The notes below the pieces were generated by a model, which worked only from the letters and a program-made list of their open reading frames with translations, was not told where the DNA came from and did not search any database. 45,123 nt of DNA from the UHGV virus genome UHGV-1374414; one strand, 5' to 3'. The position numbers and the translations under genes were made by a program. This document shows positions 1 to 45,123 of the stretch, one piece after another. Positions within the stretch are counted from its first letter, which is position 1. Each line of letters opens with the position of its first letter. Source of the DNA: a virus.

Positions 1-2153
1 AGCACGCCGCGCTCGACCATATCGTCGATTGCCTTCGTCGATGTGCCGCCTTTCGCAAGTCCAGCCTGGCGGACAATTGCCGATTTACTGAATCCGGTAT
101 GGTCCGGGTTATCTTCCATCAGTTTTTCCAGCGCCGCATAAAGCACTTTCTCTTTTTCGTTGCGCGGTCCTGCGGCGTTCTCCTCCTTAACTGCGGCTTT
201 GCCAGCGGCCTTCGCCTGTTCGATGGCGAACGGTGCCAGGGCGACCGGTACGAGGTAAAGAGTCTCGTCGCGTGGCGTGGATGCGATCGGCTTGACGTCC
301 CAACCGGCAACGACGTCACCGAAGTCTGGCCCGGTGCTGGTGGACTGGTGTGCTTCGAACGCTTCGGACTTGCGGAGATCAACCTTAACCTTGCACTTGA
401 GCAGGACGAAGCCGCGCGGCGCTTGCTTGATGCCGTTACGTGATTTTTCGTGATACAGGTTGAGTTGACCTGGCTGGTTGTCGTCCGGCTGTTCCAGGAA
501 GAACGCAGAATCGACAGCACCATGAAGCGCGCCGGACCCGCGTGGCGTTCTGCTGCCGTTTGCACCTTTCGCCGGGTGGTGGATGACGCCCGCACTGCCA
601 CCTGTATTTTCCGCAATGGCCTTCAGCGCCTTGACCACTTCGCCCATATCGCTGGCGTTGTTCTCGTCGAACGGTTTAGCATCGGCGGACCGCAACGCTA
701 CAGTCTGGTTGAGTGAGTCGAACGCCACCAGGCCAACCGGTTCGCCGTTAGCGGTGCGGTTGATGAAGCTGATAACTTCACGCAGTCCTGATTTGCTGGT
801 GATATCCCAGCCGCGTGATTGCAGATCGATAATGTGCAGCTTGTCCAGGTCGTGCTCGTATTTAATCTGCAATGCTTCCTTACGCTGGTTGGAGGCTTCA
901 CCACCTTCCGCGTCGAAATAGAAACAATGAGACTGGACGACCTTCGCACCGCCGAACGGAATACCCGCGGCAACCGCGCCCATTTGCCCCAGCACGTAGA
1001 ACGATTTGCCGATGTTAGACTCGCCAGCCATATACCAGGTCGATTTGAAGTTAATCAGCCCTTCGATGATCGGGTCGTGCTTACTGAACAGTGCGACCGG
1101 TTCGTTATCCAGGTCAGCGTCGGTACATACGCCGTACTCGTCGCCGTCTCCGACCGCATCAACAATATGATCATATAGGGACTCGACTTCCTCGTCGTCC
1201 AGTCCGGGGAGGATGGCGGCGATTTGCTTGCGTGACATGTTGTGCGGTTCGACGTTCAGGTGGTCCGGGATCCCGATAAGACGCAGCGCCAGGTGCTGGT
1301 GTCTGTTCAGTTCCGAGCAACACTCGTTGCCGGTGTGCATACACTTGAAACGGATCTCGCCATCCTTAACCATGATAGCCGTCGACCCTTCACCACTGTG
1401 CAGGTGTTCGTTCGGGCACGGCACTTCATAACCACGACCGGACGACAGCGGTTCGAATCCTGCCTGGAAGCACCAATCCAGAATGCCGTCCGCCACGCCG
1501 TCATCGCCCTGGGTCAGTTCGCGGCGTACTTCCTCTTTTTCCACTCCCAGCTTATCAGCCAGGCGAAGCAGACGACGGACGCGGGCACGTTTGCCGTAGT
1601 GACACTTAACAACCGATTGCTGGTGAGGCAGGTACATAAGGCGGTTTGTGTCTTTTGTACAATCATCGAAGTCCACATCTGACAGGCCCAGTTGGTGTAA
1701 TAGTGCATACTGGACGCGGCCCAGGTCTTCAGCCGGTACAGGCTTGTCAGTGAGCACCAGGAAACGGGCGCAACGCGTGCCGCCCTTCAGCGGGTGGCGG
1801 TCGCCGGTGGTGGTGTGAAATACGTGTTCCAGACCCGCGTCAATGAACGCCTTACGGCAGCGGCGCAGGGTGCGGGTGTCGGTGCGGTCAATATCAAAGA
1901 ACAGGATCGAGCGGTCCACCGCACTGGTCTTACGACGCAATCCGTCACTGGTATACGCCACGATGCCATCGGCCTTACGCTTGCGGCGCGCATACTCGGC
2001 TTTATCTTCCGTCTTGTTGATATGCACCGAGGAGATTTCTTTCGCATCTTTGATAAATTCGAAAAACTCATCGGTCGTCATCTGGAAGTTTTCCGCCCTG
2101 GCTTTTTCGCCTTTTTTAGCGGGTTTTGTTACAGCGAATTTAATCAAGCTCAT
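1..2153 (-). CDS. replicative primase/helicase (primase-polymerase-like N-terminal domain + P-loop helicase); 5' portion, ORF runs off left edge
   Basis: Stop-free minus-strand frame from ATG 2153-2151 (MSLIKFAVTKPAKK...) to position 1; absent from ORF track because no stop in window. Walker A GESNIGKS near 1002-1025; DxD-like ILFFDIDRTD and Cys/His cluster in N-terminal half. Confidence 0.75.
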   Translation of the reverse strand, partial: MSLIKFAVTKPAKKGEKARAENFQMTTDEFFEFIKDAKEISSVHINKTEDKAEYARRKRKADGIVAYTSDGLRRKTSAVDRSILFFDIDRTDTRTLRRCRKAFIDAGLEHVFHTTTGDRHPLKGGTRCARFLVLTDKPVPAEDLGRVQYALLHQLGLSDVDFDDCTKDTNRLMYLPHQQSVVKCHYGKRARVRRLLRLADKLGVEKEEVRRELTQGDDGVADGILDWCFQAGFEPLSSGRGYEVPCPNEHLHSGEGSTAIMVKDGEIRFKCMHTGNECCSELNRHQHLALRLIGIPDHLNVEPHNMSRKQIAAILPGLDDEEVESLYDHIVDAVGDGDEYGVCTDADLDNEPVALFSKHDPIIEGLINFKSTWYMAGESNIGKSFYVLGQMGAVAAGIPFGGAKVVQSHCFYFDAEGGEASNQRKEALQIKYEHDLDKLHIIDLQSRGWDITSKSGLREVISFINRTANGEPVGLVAFDSLNQTVALRSADAKPFDENNASDMGEVVKALKAIAENTGGSAGVIHHPAKGANGSRTPRGSGALHGAVDSAFFLEQPDDNQPGQLNLYHEKSRNGIKQAPRGFVLLKCKVKVDLRKSEAFEAHQSTSTGPDFGDVVAGWDVKPIASTPRDETLYLVPVALAPFAIEQAKAAGKAAVKEENAAGPRNEKEKVLYAALEKLMEDNPDHTGFSKSAIVRQAGLAKGGTSTKAIDDMVERGV

Positions 2154-12888: not shown

Positions 12889-13347
12889 ATGAAAATTTTA
12901 CAAGAAGAGAAAAATTACTGGGCCGCGCAATGCCTCGAAGCCCGCGAGCAAGCCGATCGGGCGAACGCGGTGGCGGACACCAACCAGGCGCTATATGAAG
13001 GCGAGAAGAAAGTGCGCCAGGAGCTAGAGGAGCGCTTCGAACTGCTTTTCGAATTGATGGGGATTATGCAGCGCACTGGATACACAACCAGCGTTGCGCT
13101 AAATCGCATCACTGCCGATGGTTTGCGTGAGCATTGCAAACGTGCCGAGGAGTACGTGCGCCCAAAAGGTCGCCAGTCTAAGATCGACCGTAAAGATCTG
13201 GTGCTTGTGGCGTGGCGCAATCCCACAAATGGCTATTTTCATGGTCGCCCTATGAGCGCCGAGGAGTCAAAGCGAGTGCAGCGAATCCTGAAGAAAGGCA
13301 ACAATATCGCCCTGTACGCGATAGCCCCCGACCATGACGAAGAATGA
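12889..13347 (+). CDS. hypothetical protein
   Basis: 152 aa; SD GGAG 8 nt upstream. Confidence 0.6.
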   Translation: MKILQEEKNYWAAQCLEAREQADRANAVADTNQALYEGEKKVRQELEERFELLFELMGIMQRTGYTTSVALNRITADGLREHCKRAEEYVRPKGRQSKIDRKDLVLVAWRNPTNGYFHGRPMSAEESKRVQRILKKGNNIALYAIAPDHDEE

Positions 13348-42279: not shown

Positions 42280-42566
42280 TTTGCACCCCCCGGAAGTCGG
42301 AACGACGCAATAGTCCCCCTGATCCGGTCGGCGATTGGCATCCAGAAGATCGCAGTTACGAAGCCCAAACCGGCGACAGTGCGCTCACCCGACAAACCAG
42401 CCCACTCAGCGATAGCCGGTGCGCCAAATATGGCACACAGGAAGCCAACTACGATATATAAAACGAAGTTCAGCGGCCCTTTCGTAGCCTCGCCATGAAT
42501 GCGTGCGCCTACGAAGCCGCCAGCCAGACATGCGATGGCAAATAGCCACTCGTTTATCTTATCCAT
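42276..42566 (-). CDS. holin-like membrane protein
   Basis: 96 aa; three predicted TM helices; first gene after upstream terminator. Confidence 0.55.
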   Translation of the reverse strand: MDKINEWLFAIACLAGGFVGARIHGEATKGPLNFVLYIVVGFLCAIFGAPAIAEWAGLSGERTVAGLGFVTAIFWMPIADRIRGTIASFRLPGGAK

Positions 42567-42567
42567 A

Positions 42568-42600
42568 AAAAAGTCCCAGTAAGTTTTAGCTCACTGGGAC
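42568..42600 (-). terminator. intrinsic terminator upstream of lysis cassette
   Basis: Minus strand: 9-bp perfect stem agtcccagt/actgggact followed by tttttt. Confidence 0.55.
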
Positions 42601-42618
42601 TATATCACGCTTGCATAA

Positions 42619-42906
42619 TTAATCGAAAATGGACCACTTGCCGACGCCTTTCCACTCCCACCCGGATGATCGAACGGCTTCGAATGTTCGACCGCCTATC
42701 ATATCCCGATACCATAGCCACCACATGCGAAGCCGGGTTGGGTGTTCCGTGATGCCACGGCGCTTGTATATCTGGAATGTCATGCGGGTAATGCTGGCAG
42801 CTTCCACGGCAGGCCAAATCAGGAATACCCATATCGCGCCCAGCACTGCCTTGGTAAGGCATAGCCAACTGGCCAATCCAAACCAATATATAAAATCGTG
42901 TAACAT
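42619..42906 (-). CDS. small membrane protein
   Basis: ATG 42906 with GGAGGGGG SD; 95 aa; hydrophobic N-terminal helices; overlaps alternative ORF 42819-43031. Confidence 0.5.
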   Translation of the reverse strand: MLHDFIYWFGLASWLCLTKAVLGAIWVFLIWPAVEAASITRMTFQIYKRRGITEHPTRLRMWWLWYRDMIGGRTFEAVRSSGWEWKGVGKWSIFD

Positions 42907-43027
42907 CGTATCGCCCCCTCCGGTTTGCCAATATGGCGCGCCCATGCACGCGCCACGAAGTAATTGCGAAACACCCGACCGCCTATCTCAAAGCGGTTGT
43001 GCATCAGCGTATCACGGATAGTCGAAC

Positions 43028-43570
43028 TCATTTCAGAATCACCGAGCGCGGGTCAATGGCGTTCATGCTGCCGTCACGTTCGACGCGGATGAATCCCACA
43101 CCGTATTCCCGCGCCTGGCGCTGCGCATTCGTCACAGCATCAAAGCGATTGATGATTTCATGCGTCGCCCGTTTCATTTTCGCTTGCACCTGGGTCGCGT
43201 CGTAAGTCGCGCGCTCATGTGGCCGGCGGTTACGCAGGCAGTATTTGCGGCCCACGCGCTCGTAGTTGACCAGCCCGAAGTACATCATACCCCTCTGTAT
43301 GTTACCCCCTACGCCGCCATTGCGGGTCTGCATACGCAGGCCGTTCCGGTAGGTGCGTTCCACGACCCACAGCTGCCCGTCGCGAACATCCCGCAGCACA
43401 TCGCCGCGCTTGATATCGTGGGTTAGTACGTCAAAGTTTGCCGGTAGGTGGACCGTATCCTCCAGACACTCAAGGCCGCTGTGTATGTGGCGCAAGCGCA
43501 CGCAGGTAGGAAGGGTCTGGATCGGTCTCATGATATAGCCGTCGGCTTTACGGCGGAATAGTAATTTCAT
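43028..43570 (-). CDS. hypothetical protein, paralog family member 1 (with C-terminal extension)
   Basis: 180 aa; shares GDVLRD-x4-G-LWV and GLV-Y-RVGRK with 43567-43911. Confidence 0.6.
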   Translation of the reverse strand: MKLLFRRKADGYIMRPIQTLPTCVRLRHIHSGLECLEDTVHLPANFDVLTHDIKRGDVLRDVRDGQLWVVERTYRNGLRMQTRNGGVGGNIQRGMMYFGLVNYERVGRKYCLRNRRPHERATYDATQVQAKMKRATHEIINRFDAVTNAQRQAREYGVGFIRVERDGSMNAIDPRSVILK

Positions 43571-43911
43571 TTGCGCAGTCTCCAGGTTGCTTTACGGCCT
43601 ACGCGGGTGTAGTCCACCAGGCCAATCGTGTTAATAGTTTGCTGTTTGCCATCCGGGCGGGCAAGCAGTAGCGTGTGCTGCCGTTTGTCTTTCTCCCAAA
43701 TACTAGCCGCAACCCATAGTTCGCCAGTGTGCTTGTCGCGCAGCACATCGCCACACCGGACGTTATGCTTGAAATAGTCGTATGCGCTCAGCATACCGAT
43801 CGGCAGCGCCAGGCGGTCGTCGCCCAGTCCTAAGATGACGAACGCGCCGCGAACGTCGATAAGGTCATAAGTGGACCCCGATTGCTCGTGGCGTGCGGTT
43901 ACTCGAATCAT
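43567..43911 (-). CDS. hypothetical protein, paralog family member 2
   Basis: 114 aa; RCGDVLRDKHTGELWV...GLVDYTRVGRKATWRLRK; ATGA overlaps on both sides. Confidence 0.6.
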   Translation of the reverse strand: MIRVTARHEQSGSTYDLIDVRGAFVILGLGDDRLALPIGMLSAYDYFKHNVRCGDVLRDKHTGELWVAASIWEKDKRQHTLLLARPDGKQQTINTIGLVDYTRVGRKATWRLRK

Positions 43912-44177
43912 TTGCTCAGTCTCCAGTGTTTGCCTACCCGCTCAATGGCGGGCTTTCGGCGTAATGTAATACGGATCCCCATTGGTTGCAAGGAAGTCCG
44001 CACCCTGAAATCGTGTTGTGCTGCGAACTGGTGCAAGTAGCGAGTCTGCGTTAACGGCTTTACGTCGTCGCGATAGCACCAGAATACCGATTCGCCCTCA
44101 ACCGCATTCTCAGCCCATATTCGTATGCAATGCAGGGGAATATGCCACGAAAGCTGTTTTGCGCGTCTGCGGCTCAT
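43908..44177 (-). CDS. hypothetical protein (possible diverged third paralog)
   Basis: 89 aa; C-terminus IERVGKHWRLSK resembles RVGRKATWRLRK of neighbour. Confidence 0.5.
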   Translation of the reverse strand: MSRRRAKQLSWHIPLHCIRIWAENAVEGESVFWCYRDDVKPLTQTRYLHQFAAQHDFRVRTSLQPMGIRITLRRKPAIERVGKHWRLSK

Positions 44178-44186
44178 TTTGGCCCC

Positions 44187-44477
44187 CTATTTCGCAAGCT
44201 GGGAGAATAGTTCGCGCTGGGCTTTAATCCGGGCGACGTTAGTCACTGCCGTTTCGCCGATACCGAAGCGATACGCCAGGCGTTCACGGGCAAATGCCAG
44301 CGCGTAAGCCCTGATAGCCGCGCGCAACGGCTCGGGGTCTTCCATGCCCGCGGTCGCATCCATGATCGCAAACCAGGTCGGAGCTACCAGGCGCTCCCAC
44401 GGTGCTCTGCCGTGGGTATATCTCACTTCGACCGGTTTTGCCACCGCCATTGTGTAATTCCAGATTAACGCTCTCAT
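44187..44477 (-). CDS. hypothetical protein (first gene of minus-strand operon after control region)
   Basis: 96 aa; SD GAGGA 9 nt upstream; leader identical to that of DnaN-like gene. Confidence 0.55.
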   Translation of the reverse strand: MRALIWNYTMAVAKPVEVRYTHGRAPWERLVAPTWFAIMDATAGMEDPEPLRAAIRAYALAFARERLAYRFGIGETAVTNVARIKAQRELFSQLAK

Positions 44478-44505
44478 TGTTCAGTCCTCATGTTGGTGTG
44501 CAACC

Positions 44506-44534
44506 AATATAGCAGGGTGCCAGGGCGGATGCAA
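44506..44534 (-). promoter_or_regulatory. sigma70-like promoter TTGCAT-17-TATATT (minus strand) from two ATATTGGTTGCA repeats
   Basis: Minus-strand -35 = plus 44529-44534, -10 = plus 44506-44511. Confidence 0.5.
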
Positions 44535-44611
44535 CCAATATTAATCACGCGCATGAAAAAGTTGATCGCTATCTGCTGTGACTGCAAACTGCGTTTTTCA
44601 CTCCGCATAAT

Positions 44612-44630
44612 GCAACCTGCATTGGTTGCC
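44612..44630. promoter_or_regulatory. inverted repeat GCAACC-tgcatt-GGTTGC (motif-derived operator-like site)
   Basis: Perfect 6-bp arms; overlaps ATTGGTTGCC at 44621-44630. Confidence 0.35.
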
Positions 44631-44689
44631 TAGTTCACCGGCGACCGCACTTCGCATCATGCTGCCGTGTATTTTGCAATCCCCGGATT

Positions 44690-44873
44690 TTATTCAGTCT
44701 CAGACGAGGGGGGCCACTGACCCCCGTCTAGTCTGAAAGACTGGGGTGCTGTCCCGCTGTCCCGCTCCTCTGGAAGCCGCGCCATCCGGGGCGGGACTGG
44801 GGTGCTGTCCCGCTTTGTCCCGCCCCTTGTTTGTCCCGCTTTTTGTCCCGCTTACTTTATGCAATAAAACTGC
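44690..44873. repeat. composite repeat element copy 2 (hairpins + TGTCCCGC iteron array), near primase gene 3' end
   Basis: About 85 percent identical to 27745-27918 in same orientation; five to six TGTCCCGC iterons; AT-rich tract follows. Confidence 0.8.
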
Positions 44874-44900
44874 ATAACTATTCACTATATCTACACTACA

Positions 44901-45002
44901 CGGCAACCAATGCGACCAGCTAAAAACACTCAATCCGGCAACCAATGCTCGCACAAATTAATCGTTTAGCGATATGGGGATTCCCATATCGGCAACCAAT
45001 GC
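44901..45002. repeat. three direct repeats of CGGCAACCAATGC plus a 20-bp palindrome
   Basis: Repeats at 44901-44913, 44936-44948, 44990-45002; palindrome GATATGGGGATTCCCATATC at 44971-44990. Confidence 0.7.
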
Positions 45003-45014
45003 GCGCAGAATTTA

Positions 45015-45123
45015 ATCTTTTAAATCATCATCGGTCGCCGAAAGCGTGATGGGTATATTCGTTTTAATGACGATATTCGACGACCCATAGATGGCCCCGG
45101 TATGCGGATCGGTATAAAAACCG
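45015..45123 (-). CDS. 3' end of the same primase/helicase gene if the sequence is circular (stop TAA at 45012-45014)
   Basis: Minus-strand frame open from right edge to TAA. The 2 leftover nt at positions 2-1 plus 1 nt at 45123 make an in-frame CTC codon, giving ...DMVERGV-L-GFYTDPHTGAIYGSSNIVIK...DDDLKD*. Confidence 0.55.

What the first reader, a model, noticed from the sequence alone, without database searches (positions are those of the whole stretch)
43028..44177. Tandem array of two to three paralogous small genes with ATGA-overlapping junctions
Genes 43028-43570 and 43567-43911 share a ~90-aa domain (GDVLRD-x4-G-LWV ... GLV-Y-RVGRK), and 43908-44177 ends in a similar VGKHWRLSK. Junction DNA is also repeated (catttgc[g/t]cagtctccag at 43560-43580 and 43905-43925). 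They are the first genes of the minus-strand operon, a typical place for host-takeover or anti-defence genes.
Basis: seen in the sequence. Interest (0 to 1): 0.5.

Follow-up and report, generated by a model that had tools for sequence, protein, structure and literature searches.

The report
Duplicated small gene in variable phage slot
Two neighbouring small genes of this E. coli phage (genus Dhillonvirus) are real but distant duplicates encoding a basic double-barrel (SH3/Tudor-like) module of unknown function; the extra copy is a 341-bp cassette in a slot that varies between related phages, so this is an ordinary case of phage gene shuffling.

Summary
The window is a Dhillonvirus (HK578/SO-1-like) genome.

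**What holds up**
- Genes 43028-43570 ("A", the gp52 family, 180 aa) and 43567-43911 ("B", 114 aa) are true paralogues. BLASTP gives 35% identity over 84 aa, E=8e-13, and B matches the gp52 PHROG profile at E=6e-11.
- B is a stand-alone copy of gp52's N-terminal module. AlphaFold (pLDDT 86) predicts two tandem SH3/Tudor/KOW-like barrels.
- B is under purifying selection (dN/dS about 0.2). It occurs in only 7 of about 157 dhillonvirus records.

**What does not hold up**
- The third gene (gp51-like, 43908-44177) is not a detectable paralogue. Only its last ~11 residues resemble the others.
- That resemblance comes from the repeated 19-nt junction CTGGAGACTG[A/C]GCAAATGA. The junction carries the ribosome-binding site and the overlapping start of the next gene, and it precedes gp52 in all 16 genomes examined, in two reading frames. 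It brackets B as a 341-bp indel relative to phage SO-1.
- The genes are not first on their strand. The helicase-primase gene lies upstream and wraps around the window ends.

Function is unknown. My best guess is a cytoplasmic adaptor that binds RNA polymerase or nucleic acid, and this is weakly supported. Interest is low to moderate.

The parts
43567..43911 (-). Gene B, 114 aa, pI 9.8. Accessory paralogue of the N-terminal module of gp52. Predicted as two tandem five-stranded SH3-like barrels (residues 4-49 and 55-106).
43028..43570 (-). Gene A, the gp52 family (phrog_10243), 180 aa, pI 10.3. A core but fast-evolving Dhillonvirus gene. It has an N-terminal double-barrel module (residues 1-116, 43223-43570), a variable linker, and a conserved C-terminal helix plus beta-hairpin domain (residues ~121-180, 43031-43210; phrog_27442).
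   Evidence: phrog_10243 over the full length, E=7.7e-77, and phrog_27442 on residues 127-180. Found in 156 phage records at 31-83% identity. AF2 pLDDT 60 overall and 70-83 in the N-terminal module. Conservation profile.
43735..43752 (-). GDVLRD motif of B (residues 54-59), at the first strand of barrel 2. This is the most conserved stretch shared with A.
   Evidence: Alignments A1 and A4: DVLRD is invariant in 26-27 sequences.
43388..43405 (-). GDVLRD motif of A (residues 56-61). A 14-nt run (ggcgatgtgctgcg) is identical to B. The natural B::A chimera P0005 has its crossover at this motif.
   Evidence: Sequence. P0005 sequence and its genomic context. Column entropy 0.05 over residues 51-60.
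43908..43926 (-). Junction copy 1: CTGGAGACTGAGCAAATGA. It holds the last five sense codons (WRLSK) and the stop of gp51, the Shine-Dalgarno GGAG (43924-43921), a 9-nt spacer, and the ATG of B (43911-43909).
43567..43585 (-). Junction copy 2: CTGGAGACTGCGCAAATGA. It holds the last five sense codons (WRLRK) and the stop of B, GGAG (43583-43580), and the ATG of A (43570-43568). Together with copy 1 it forms the direct repeat bracketing a 341-bp indel relative to phage SO-1.
   Evidence: The two blastn alignments to SO-1 overlap by exactly this 19 nt (L001 4323-4341).
43908..44177 (-). gp51-like core gene, 89 aa, pI 11.1 (phrog_12533). It forms the upstream border of the variable slot and is not a demonstrable paralogue of A or B.
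   Evidence: phrog_12533, E=2e-58. Found in 157 records at 73-98% identity. No BLASTP alignment to A or B. hhalign probability 0.4%.
42572..42601 (-). Strong intrinsic-terminator-like hairpin with a T-run. It closes the small-gene cluster and abuts the first holin ATG (42566).
   Evidence: A terminator is annotated at the same place in WF5505.
44609..45014 (-). Repeat-rich spacer between the helicase-primase gene and the small-gene cluster, called 'region B' in the SO-1 record. It is a candidate origin or promoter region.

Best explanation
**What it is (well supported)**
- The region is a variable accessory-gene slot between two core Dhillonvirus genes, gp51 and gp52.
- Here the slot holds the rare 114-aa gene B. 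B is a truncated, diverged paralogue of the N-terminal module of gp52 (gene A).
- Both proteins are basic and lack any signal peptide. They are built from two tandem SH3-like (Tudor/KOW-type) beta-barrels. gp52 carries an extra conserved C-terminal domain.

**How the arrangement arose and is maintained (partly shown, partly inferred)**
- Every cassette in the slot ends in the same ~17-19-nt junction, GGAGACTGAGCAA(A)TGA.
- This junction provides the Shine-Dalgarno sequence and the overlapping, translationally coupled start codon of the next gene. Its sequence and position are shown; its ribosome-binding function is inferred from consensus and spacing.
- Because it is repeated on both sides of each cassette, it also serves as the homology for gain, loss and exchange of cassettes. 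B is a 341-bp indel bracketed by two copies.
- B's structure is a gp52 N-module up to 'RVGRK' followed by a gp51-like tail '..WRL(S/R)K*'. This fits an unequal crossover between the similar 'ERVG(R)K' codons of gp51 and gp52 (inferred).
- The paralogues still recombine with each other at the GDVLRD codons, as the natural chimera P0005 shows.

**What the proteins do (inferred, about 0.2 probability)**
They act as cytoplasmic adaptor proteins made from the transcription unit between the replication genes and the lysis and late genes. The conserved GDVLRD…G.LWV hairpin of barrel 2 binds a host nucleic-acid machine. Bacterial RNA polymerase is the most likely target, by analogy with the CarD, Mfd-RID and UvrD/PcrA Tudor-like domains. 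Direct nucleic-acid binding is the alternative. B lacks the C-terminal domain and would act as a specificity variant or competitor of gp52.
For: **Paralogy**
- BLASTP E=8e-13, the PHROG profile at E=6e-11 and a full-length alignment with 17 invariant columns.

**Fold**
- B model: pLDDT 85.6, with two identical beta1-4/short-helix/beta5 units. The lower-confidence model of A gives the same strand order.

**B is a functional gene**
- dN/dS 0.20 at dS 0.27.

**Slot variability**
- 16 loci show a slot of 0, ~130, ~140-150, 313, 327, 341 or 462 nt.
- Database counts: gp51 in 157 records, gp52 in 156, acidic 44-aa ORF in 105, 50-aa ORF in 25, B in 7.

**Junction**
- Present before gp52 in all 16 loci whatever lies upstream, and read as WRLSK*, RRLSK* or EETEQ*.
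- Two copies in the window against 0 expected.
- SO-1 lacks exactly one repeat unit plus B.

**Recombination**
- The chimera P0005 (B residues 1-58 followed by gp52) sits alone between gp51 and the holins.
- Other fusion or deletion variants exist: P0135, P0138 and P0131.

**Other**
- Basic charge: pI 9.8-11.1.
- Position: between the helicase-primase and a terminator that precedes the holins.
Against: - There is no sequence-level match to the CarD_TRCF_RID, KOW or any other Pfam family at E<=1, nor to NCBIfam.
- The only PDB sequence hit, E. coli RNAP omega against the C-terminal helix of A, is at chance level (E=0.3-1.2).
- Expression timing, the promoter and essentiality are unknown.
- The unequal-crossover scenario rests on a ~9-nt similarity plus the junction. 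The 30-35% identity between B and A means either an old event or capture from a divergent phage, and these cannot be told apart here.
- The A model has only moderate confidence (pLDDT 60).
Confidence: 0.6

Rival explanations
1. Anti-defence or host-takeover cassette. B, and perhaps gp52, binds and inhibits a bacterial immune protein or serves as a decoy. The slot is an 'accessory region' where counter-defence genes are swapped between phages.
For: - B is patchy: 7 of about 157 records.
- The slot holds at least four or five alternative small ORFs.
- gp52 evolves far faster than its neighbour gp51: 31-83% against 73-98% identity. It has mosaic variable blocks, a pattern typical of arms-race genes.
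- Dhillonviruses are known to carry lineage-specific anti-defence genes, for example anti-Tmn (PMC11846954).
Against: - No similarity to any known anti-defence or defence family.
- The characterised Dhillonvirus defence-interacting genes lie in the other genome arm and are unrelated.
- The cluster is not in an immediate-early position.
- No experimental link exists.
- This rival does not conflict with the cassette model. It differs only in the binding partner.
Confidence: 0.25
2. Lysis-module accessory SH3 proteins. Like the stand-alone SH3 (DUF7244) gene next to the lysis cassette of T1-like phages, B and gp52 would bind peptidoglycan and assist the endolysin.
For: - SH3-like fold.
- The cluster lies ~0.5-1 kb upstream of the holin-holin-endolysin genes.
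- A precedent has been proposed for Drexlerviridae (PMC13164509).
Against: - No signal peptide or transmembrane segment is evident in either sequence, so neither protein has a route to the periplasm before lysis.
- A strong terminator separates the cluster from the holin genes.
- No Pfam hit at E<=1, so there is no match to DUF7244 or SH3 clan families.
- The nearest structural neighbours are Tudor/KOW-type barrels. Only a few lysin SH3 hits appear, at lower rank.
Confidence: 0.07
3. Three-member paralogue array. gp51-like (43908-44177) would be a third, highly diverged copy of the same domain.
For: - The gp51 tail 'ERVGKHWRLSK' lines up with 'ERVGRKYCLRN' of A and 'TRVGRKATWRLRK' of B, at the same position as the domain end.
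- gp51 has similar size and basic charge.
Against: - BLASTP finds nothing.
- hhalign matches 11 columns only, with E=0.15 and probability 0.4%.
- gp51 belongs to a different PHROG family.
- The WRLSK part is encoded by the junction DNA, which is conserved in another reading frame elsewhere.
- The gp51 structure was not predicted here, so a shared fold is not excluded.
Confidence: 0.08
4. B is a decaying duplicate or an annotation artefact with no function.
For: - B is rare.
- It is truncated relative to gp52.
- Many broken or fused variants of this region occur in metagenomic contigs.
Against: - The 114-codon frame is intact in all carriers at 89-99% identity.
- dN/dS is about 0.2.
- It has its own Shine-Dalgarno sequence and coupled start.
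- The model is confidently folded.
Confidence: 0.03

Closest known systems
gp52 of Sodalis phage SO-1 / HK578_052 family (PHROG phrog_10243), uncharacterised
   Same: Gene A is a full-length member (E=7.7e-77). B shares the N-terminal module, with the same invariant residues and predicted fold. The GenBank record of phage WF5505 already notes that the B orthologue is 'weakly similar to gp52'.
   Different: B lacks the linker and the C-terminal domain (phrog_27442). It is only ~30-35% identical to gp52 proteins. It is an accessory gene, not a core one.
Tudor-like RNA-polymerase-interacting domains (CarD N-terminal domain, Mfd RID, UvrD/PcrA C-terminal Tudor)
KOW-type barrels (NusG/Spt5, eL14, eL27, bL19, EF-P domain I)
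   Different: No KOW Pfam hit. The context is not ribosomal or an elongation factor.
Stand-alone SH3 (DUF7244) gene beside the lysis cassette of Drexlerviridae (PMC13164509)
   Same: A small stand-alone SH3-fold gene of a coliphage siphovirus, located upstream of the lysis genes, with patchy distribution.
   Different: No sequence match. A and B are separated from the lysis genes by a terminator. They have double barrels. The function of DUF7244 is itself only hypothesised.
Mosaic 'boundary sequences' and accessory regions of phage genomes (short conserved junctions between exchangeable genes, as described for lambdoid phages)
   Same: A short conserved sequence at gene boundaries flanks alternative cassettes and marks the indel end-points.
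   Different: Here the boundary is also the ribosome-binding site plus the ATGA coupled start. It is embedded in the 3' coding end of whichever gene lies upstream, in more than one reading frame.

Membership tests
phrog_10243 (Dhillonvirus gp52 family) | Significant match to the family profile over its full length (184 positions) | tested here: met
   Gene A: E=7.7e-77 over profile positions 1-184.
phrog_10243 (Dhillonvirus gp52 family) | The same full-length match, tested for gene B | tested here: not met
   B matches only profile positions 44-109 (E=6.3e-11). In the alignment it covers only the N-terminal module and lacks the C-terminal domain. B is therefore a domain-level paralogue and not an orthologous member.
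SH3-like barrel fold (Tudor/KOW class) | Five antiparallel strands forming a small barrel, with a short helix or 3-10 turn before strand 5 | tested here: met
CarD_TRCF_RID / UvrD-PcrA Tudor (RNAP-binding) | Sequence-profile membership (Pfam) | tested here: not met
   No Pfam family at E<=1 for A or B.
CarD_TRCF_RID / UvrD-PcrA Tudor (RNAP-binding) | Binding to the RNA polymerase beta lobe | not testable with these tools
   This needs a complex prediction or a pull-down experiment.
KOW motif family (PF00467) | Sequence-profile match to the KOW motif | tested here: not met
   No Pfam hit at E<=1.
DUF7244 stand-alone SH3 of T1-like lysis modules | Pfam/InterPro DUF7244 match, and a position directly inside the lysis cassette | tested here: not met
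   No Pfam hit. The cluster is separated from the holins by gp53 and a terminator.
Known anti-defence proteins of Dhillonvirus (anti-Tmn; and the Avs2 trigger Ksap1) | Homology or synteny with SM_S22 ORF35, or with the 74-aa Ksap1 gene lying between the methyltransferase and phosphatase genes | tested here: not met
   SM_S22 CDS0035 is taken here to be ORF35. Against A it gives no alignment. Its window homologue lies at 12889-13347 on the other strand. The Ksap1 locus is described as lying elsewhere.
Three-gene paralogue array including gp51 | Significant sequence or profile similarity of gp51 to A or B | tested here: not met
Defence-system components (PADLOC) / NCBIfam named families | A profile match | tested here: not met
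   No families at E<=1.

The most novel reading that the evidence does not exclude
gp52 and its stand-alone copy B would be a previously unrecognised class of phage-encoded tandem-Tudor proteins. They would dock on host RNA polymerase as CarD, Mfd and UvrD do, and control the switch to late (lysis and structural) transcription across the terminator at 42572-42601. The fast-evolving gp52 alleles and the interchangeable slot cassettes (B, the 50-aa single barrel) would tune or compete for that interaction. The junction would work as a built-in cassette-exchange site.
Probability: 0.08. Interest if true: 0.6.

Novelty: new member of a known kind. Interest (0 to 1): 0.25.

Why it matters
If the reading is right, the practical value is modest.

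- It gives a fold (tandem SH3/Tudor-like) and a domain map to an orphan family that is core to a commonly isolated coliphage genus used in the BASEL and phage-therapy collections.
- It separates real paralogy from a look-alike tail that is caused by an embedded ribosome-binding site.
- It documents a clean natural example of a short junction, combining RBS and coupled start, that doubles as the recombination site for swapping small accessory genes. This is useful for phage engineering, because the gp51/gp52 junction is a natural insertion site that tolerates 0-462 nt.
- The function of these proteins remains open. Only if they prove to be polymerase-binding regulators or counter-defence factors would the finding become important.

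Tried and rejected
- **Third paralogue (gp51).** BLASTP and hhalign were negative.
- **Internal sequence repeat between the two barrels.** hhalign of subdomain 1 against subdomain 2 gave E=0.15 over 9 columns. The repeat is structural only.
- **The 50-aa slot ORF as a paralogue.**
  - BLASTP to B: E=0.17.
  - hhalign of two sequences: nothing.
  - hhalign of a four-member family against barrel 1: 45 collinear columns, E=0.004, but probability only 8%.
  - Foldseek match of what is probably this ORF, a 50-aa BFVD protein from phage 011D5 (its identity was not checked): TM 0.86, E=0.059.
  - Verdict: suggestive, not established.
- **RNAP omega mimicry by the C-terminal helix of A.** The profile search of PDB sequences returned only E. 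coli omega (E=0.3-0.7). The single-sequence search put it at E=1.2, level with ribosomal protein uL4. Treated as chance.
- **Named families.** Pfam, NCBIfam and PADLOC gave no hits. PHROGs returned only families of unknown function.
- **Exhaustive profile search of 1.84 billion representatives.** Only 25 hits, essentially all dhillonvirus-type variants and fragments. No annotated distant relative was found.
- **Context of stand-alone C-domain homologues.** P0147 lies after the lysozyme gene of an unrelated 44.8-kb siphophage. The 176-aa protein at the gp52-like position there is unrelated. This was uninformative.
- **Literature.** No paper found assigns a function to gp51 or gp52. Anti-Tmn, Ksap1, and the RAZR, Borvo and retron triggers of dhillonviruses are all other genes.
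- **Sigma-70 promoter scan.** No consensus-quality promoter on the minus strand between 44478 and 45014.
Full report
**Source and layout**

The 2.5 kb around the finding matches 159 phage records, nearly all Escherichia or Shigella phages of the genus Dhillonvirus, including HK578, Sodalis phage SO-1 and several BASEL phages. Identity is 84-90%.

In those records the gene order is gp47, helicase-primase, a ~480-bp repeat region ('region B' in SO-1), then small genes gp49-gp53, then holin, holin and endolysin. The window has the same order on its minus strand.

tblastn with the SO-1 helicase-primase shows that this gene occupies window 2153->3 and continues at 45122->45015. The window is therefore a circular permutation cut inside that gene. 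The small genes are not the first genes on the strand.

The cluster ends at a strong terminator-like hairpin (42601-42572) whose T-run abuts the first holin ATG at 42566.

**Checking the observation**

The three ORFs and their ATGA overlaps are as described.

- A (180 aa) and B (114 aa) align at 35% identity over 84 residues, E=8e-13.
- As an independent check, B matches PHROG phrog_10243 at E=6.3e-11. A matches the same profile end to end at E=7.7e-77.
- In an alignment of 22 gp52-family proteins, three B-type proteins and one chimera, B aligns along its whole length to residues 1-116 of A. There are 17 invariant columns, including H51, D57-V-L-R-D61, G65, W68, L100 and R105-V-G107.
- The gp51-like protein gives no BLASTP alignment to A or B. 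A profile-profile comparison aligns only 11 tail columns, with E=0.15 and probability 0.4%.
- The repeated junction is at 43567-43585 and 43908-43926, 18/19 identical. It is found twice in the window against zero expected.

**What the junction is**

I extracted the 45 nt upstream of the gp52 start in 15 related loci plus the window.

- All carry GGAGAC(T/A)GA(G/A)C(A/T)A(A)TGA immediately before and overlapping the gp52 ATG, whatever the upstream gene.
- Upstream of gp52 the junction closes gp51 (…HWRLSK*), B (…TWRLRK*) or a 50-aa ORF (…YRRLSK*).
- It also closes a 44-50-aa acidic ORF, where the same nucleotides are read in another frame (…EETEQ*). Locus L016 carries the motif in yet another sequence context.
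- GGAG sits 9 nt before the ATG, which is a normal Shine-Dalgarno spacing.

The conserved element therefore acts at the DNA or RNA level. It is the ribosome-binding site and coupled start of the downstream gene, embedded in the last codons of whichever gene is upstream. This explains why the tail of gp51 looks like the tail of B without any domain homology.

**A variable slot**

Across the 16 loci, the distance from the gp51 stop to the gp52 start is 0, ~130, ~140-150, 313, 327, 341 or 462 nt. The slot holds different combinations of small ORFs.

| Element | Records in the phage database (by tblastn) | Identity |
|---|---|---|
| gp51 | 157 | 73-98% |
| gp52 (A) | 156 | 31-83% |
| Acidic 44-aa ORF | 105 | – |
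| 50-aa ORF | 25 | – |
| B | 7 (5 distinct phages: WFI, WF5505, 101114B2, 22664B1, CHD2B1) | – |

- B lies between gp51 and gp52 in the two carrier records examined (WF5505 and CHD2B1).
- Against SO-1, the window aligns as two blocks that overlap in SO-1 by exactly the 19-nt junction. B is therefore a 341-bp indel bracketed by a direct repeat of the junction.
- B is a live gene. Against the WF5505 and CHD2B1 copies, dS is about 0.27 and dN about 0.055, giving dN/dS of about 0.20, similar to gp51.

**Recombination between the paralogues**

- The big protein database holds only five B-type proteins.
- One of them, P0005 (190 aa), is identical in type to B for residues 1-58. At the shared GDVLRD motif it switches to a gp52 sequence that includes the C-terminal domain.
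- In its contig, P0005 is the only gene between gp51 and the holin region. This is the expected product of a deletion by recombination between the tandem paralogues.
- In the window, the identical run at that motif is 14 nt.
- The exhaustive profile search also recovered N-module::gp53 fusions and internally deleted forms. This region rearranges often.
- B consists of a gp52 N-module up to RVGRK followed by a gp51-like tail. This is what an unequal crossover between the similar ERVG(R)K codons of gp51 and gp52 would produce. That step is inference.

**Structure**

- The A model is only moderately confident: pLDDT 60 overall, 70-83 in the N-terminal 80 residues, and below 50 in the linker and long helix.
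- The B model is confident: pLDDT 85.6, pTM 0.74. It shows two consecutive units of four strands, a short helix and a fifth strand, at residues 4-49 and 55-106. This is a tandem SH3-like barrel.
- No sequence similarity between the two barrels is detectable.
  - CarD;
  - the C-terminal Tudor domains of PcrA and UvrD, including the UvrD complex with the RNAP lobe;
  - Mfd;
  - KOW-type ribosomal proteins (eL14, eL27) and bL19;
  - NusG/Spt5, EF-P domain I, PsaE and NdhS.
- These scores establish the fold class, not a function.
- The most conserved surface element in both paralogues is HDI.RGDVLRD..DG.LWVV, with column entropy 0.05-0.34. The second half of barrel 1, the middle of barrel 2 and the linker are mosaic and variable.
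- gp51, B, A and the 50-aa ORF are all strongly basic, pI 9.8-11.2.

**Family breadth and annotation**

- A profile of the family, searched without a word index against 1.84 billion representative proteins, found 25 proteins.
- Apart from two short stand-alone homologues of the C-terminal domain (P0146, P0147), the hits whose sequences were inspected (14 of the 25) are dhillonvirus-type variants or fragments. The family is confined to this phage group.
- Pfam, NCBIfam and PADLOC give nothing at E<=1. The PHROG families are all 'unknown function'.
- The GenBank record of WF5505 already says that its B orthologue is 'weakly similar to gp52 [Sodalis phage SO1]'. The paralogy itself has therefore been noticed before.

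**Literature**

- The Dhillonvirus anti-Tmn protein is ORF35 of phage SM_S22 (PMC11846954). Taken as CDS0035 of the deposited record, it is a 154-aa protein in the other genome arm. It is 77% identical to window ORF 12889-13347 and unrelated to A.
- The RAZR, Borvo and retron-Eco8 determinants of SECphi18 are the portal, the DNA polymerase and SSB.
- A stand-alone SH3 (DUF7244) next to the T1-like lysis cassette has been proposed as a lysis accessory (PMC13164509). A and B do not match it and have no export signal.

**Mechanism**

- Shown:
  - the paralogy;
  - the cassette indel bracketed by the junction repeat;
  - conservation of the junction irrespective of reading frame;
  - purifying selection on B;
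  - natural chimeras between the paralogues.
- Predicted with good confidence: the tandem SH3-like fold.
- Inferred:
  - that the junction functions as ribosome-binding site and recombination site;
  - the unequal-crossover origin of B.
- Function: my best guess, at about 0.2, is a cytoplasmic adaptor that uses the conserved barrel-2 hairpin to bind RNA polymerase or nucleic acid during the replication-to-late transition. B would act as a variant or competitor lacking the C-terminal domain.
- Support for that guess is limited to fold neighbours, basic charge and a position just upstream of the terminator that precedes the lysis and late genes.
- An anti-defence role (about 0.25, overlapping with the above) cannot be excluded. 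A lysis role is unlikely.

**Verdict**

This is a real two-gene paralogy, not three, in an ordinary phage mosaic hot spot, together with an explanation of the repeated junction. It is a new member of known kinds: an orphan SH3-fold phage protein and an accessory-gene cassette. Interest is low to moderate.

Noticed in passing
window 44480-45014 (minus strand), between the helicase-primase stop and gp50-like: A repeat-rich region. GCATTGGTTGCC occurs three times direct (about 45002-44902) and once inverted (44619-44630). ATATTGGTTGCA occurs twice, 31 nt apart (44499-44541), flanking a weak TTGCAT-17 nt-TATATT promoter-like site. GCGGGACA occurs at least six times (44740-44860). The SO-1 record calls this 'region B' and notes similarity to a 'region A'. 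It may be an origin or an operator array.
   Followed up: partly
window 42566-42601 (minus strand): The terminator hairpin AGTCCCAGT…ACTGGGACT plus TTTTT ends directly at the ATG of the first holin (42566). The only Shine-Dalgarno-like GGGA lies inside the 3' arm of the stem. Transcription termination and occlusion of holin translation could therefore be coupled, which may be a lysis-timing device.
   Followed up: no
window 3-2153 and 45015-45122 (minus strand): The replicative helicase-primase gene (98% identical to SO-1 gp48) is split by the window ends. The contig is a circular permutation, and ORF lists miss this gene.
   Followed up: yes
window 12889-13347 (+): A 152-aa ORF 77% identical to SM_S22 CDS0035. 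This is presumably ORF35, the experimentally characterised anti-Tmn protein of Dhillonvirus (PMC11846954). The published data show that close homologues differ in activity.
   Followed up: partly
window 43082-43156 (minus strand; A residues 139-163): THEIINRFDAVTNAQRQAREYGVGF resembles E. coli RNAP omega residues ~10-34 ([25 protein letters not shown], about 12/25 identical; omega sequence quoted from memory). The score is at chance level (E=0.3-1.2).
   Followed up: yes
Slot between gp51 and gp52 in related loci, e.g. L015 3267-3419, L007 3267-3419, L021 ~683-847, L022 668-841: A 50-57-aa basic ORF (MIRVKSKATGLIYLVVWEGNG…YRRLSK) occupies the slot in 25 phage records. It starts with the same MIRV codons as B. 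Its family aligns collinearly but weakly to barrel 1 (E=0.004). The predicted structure of a 50-aa protein from phage 011D5, probably this ORF, superposes on the A model (TM 0.86). It may be a single-barrel relative.
   Followed up: partly
window 42819-43031 and 42619-42945 (minus strand): The 70-aa ORF after A and the gp53-like ORF overlap by 127 nt as listed. PHROG matches suggest that the real products are about 46 aa and about 95 aa (start at M14, 42906). Metagenomic variants fuse the gp52 N-module directly to the gp53 C-terminus (P0135, P0138).
   Followed up: partly
window 44187-44477 (minus strand), gp50-like: A 96-aa basic protein with a weak helix-turn-helix signal (Pfam HTH_Tnp_4, E=0.09, residues 65-81). 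It may be a DNA-binding regulator next to the repeat region. Identity to related phages varies widely, from 53% to 95%.
   Followed up: no
L018 8001-8189 (MN855773.1) and L017 322-585: Stand-alone homologues of the C-terminal domain of gp52 (62 and 87 aa, phrog_27442) occur in non-dhillonvirus phage contigs. In MN855773.1 the gene lies just after the lysozyme gene. The C-domain is therefore an independent mobile module.
   Followed up: partly
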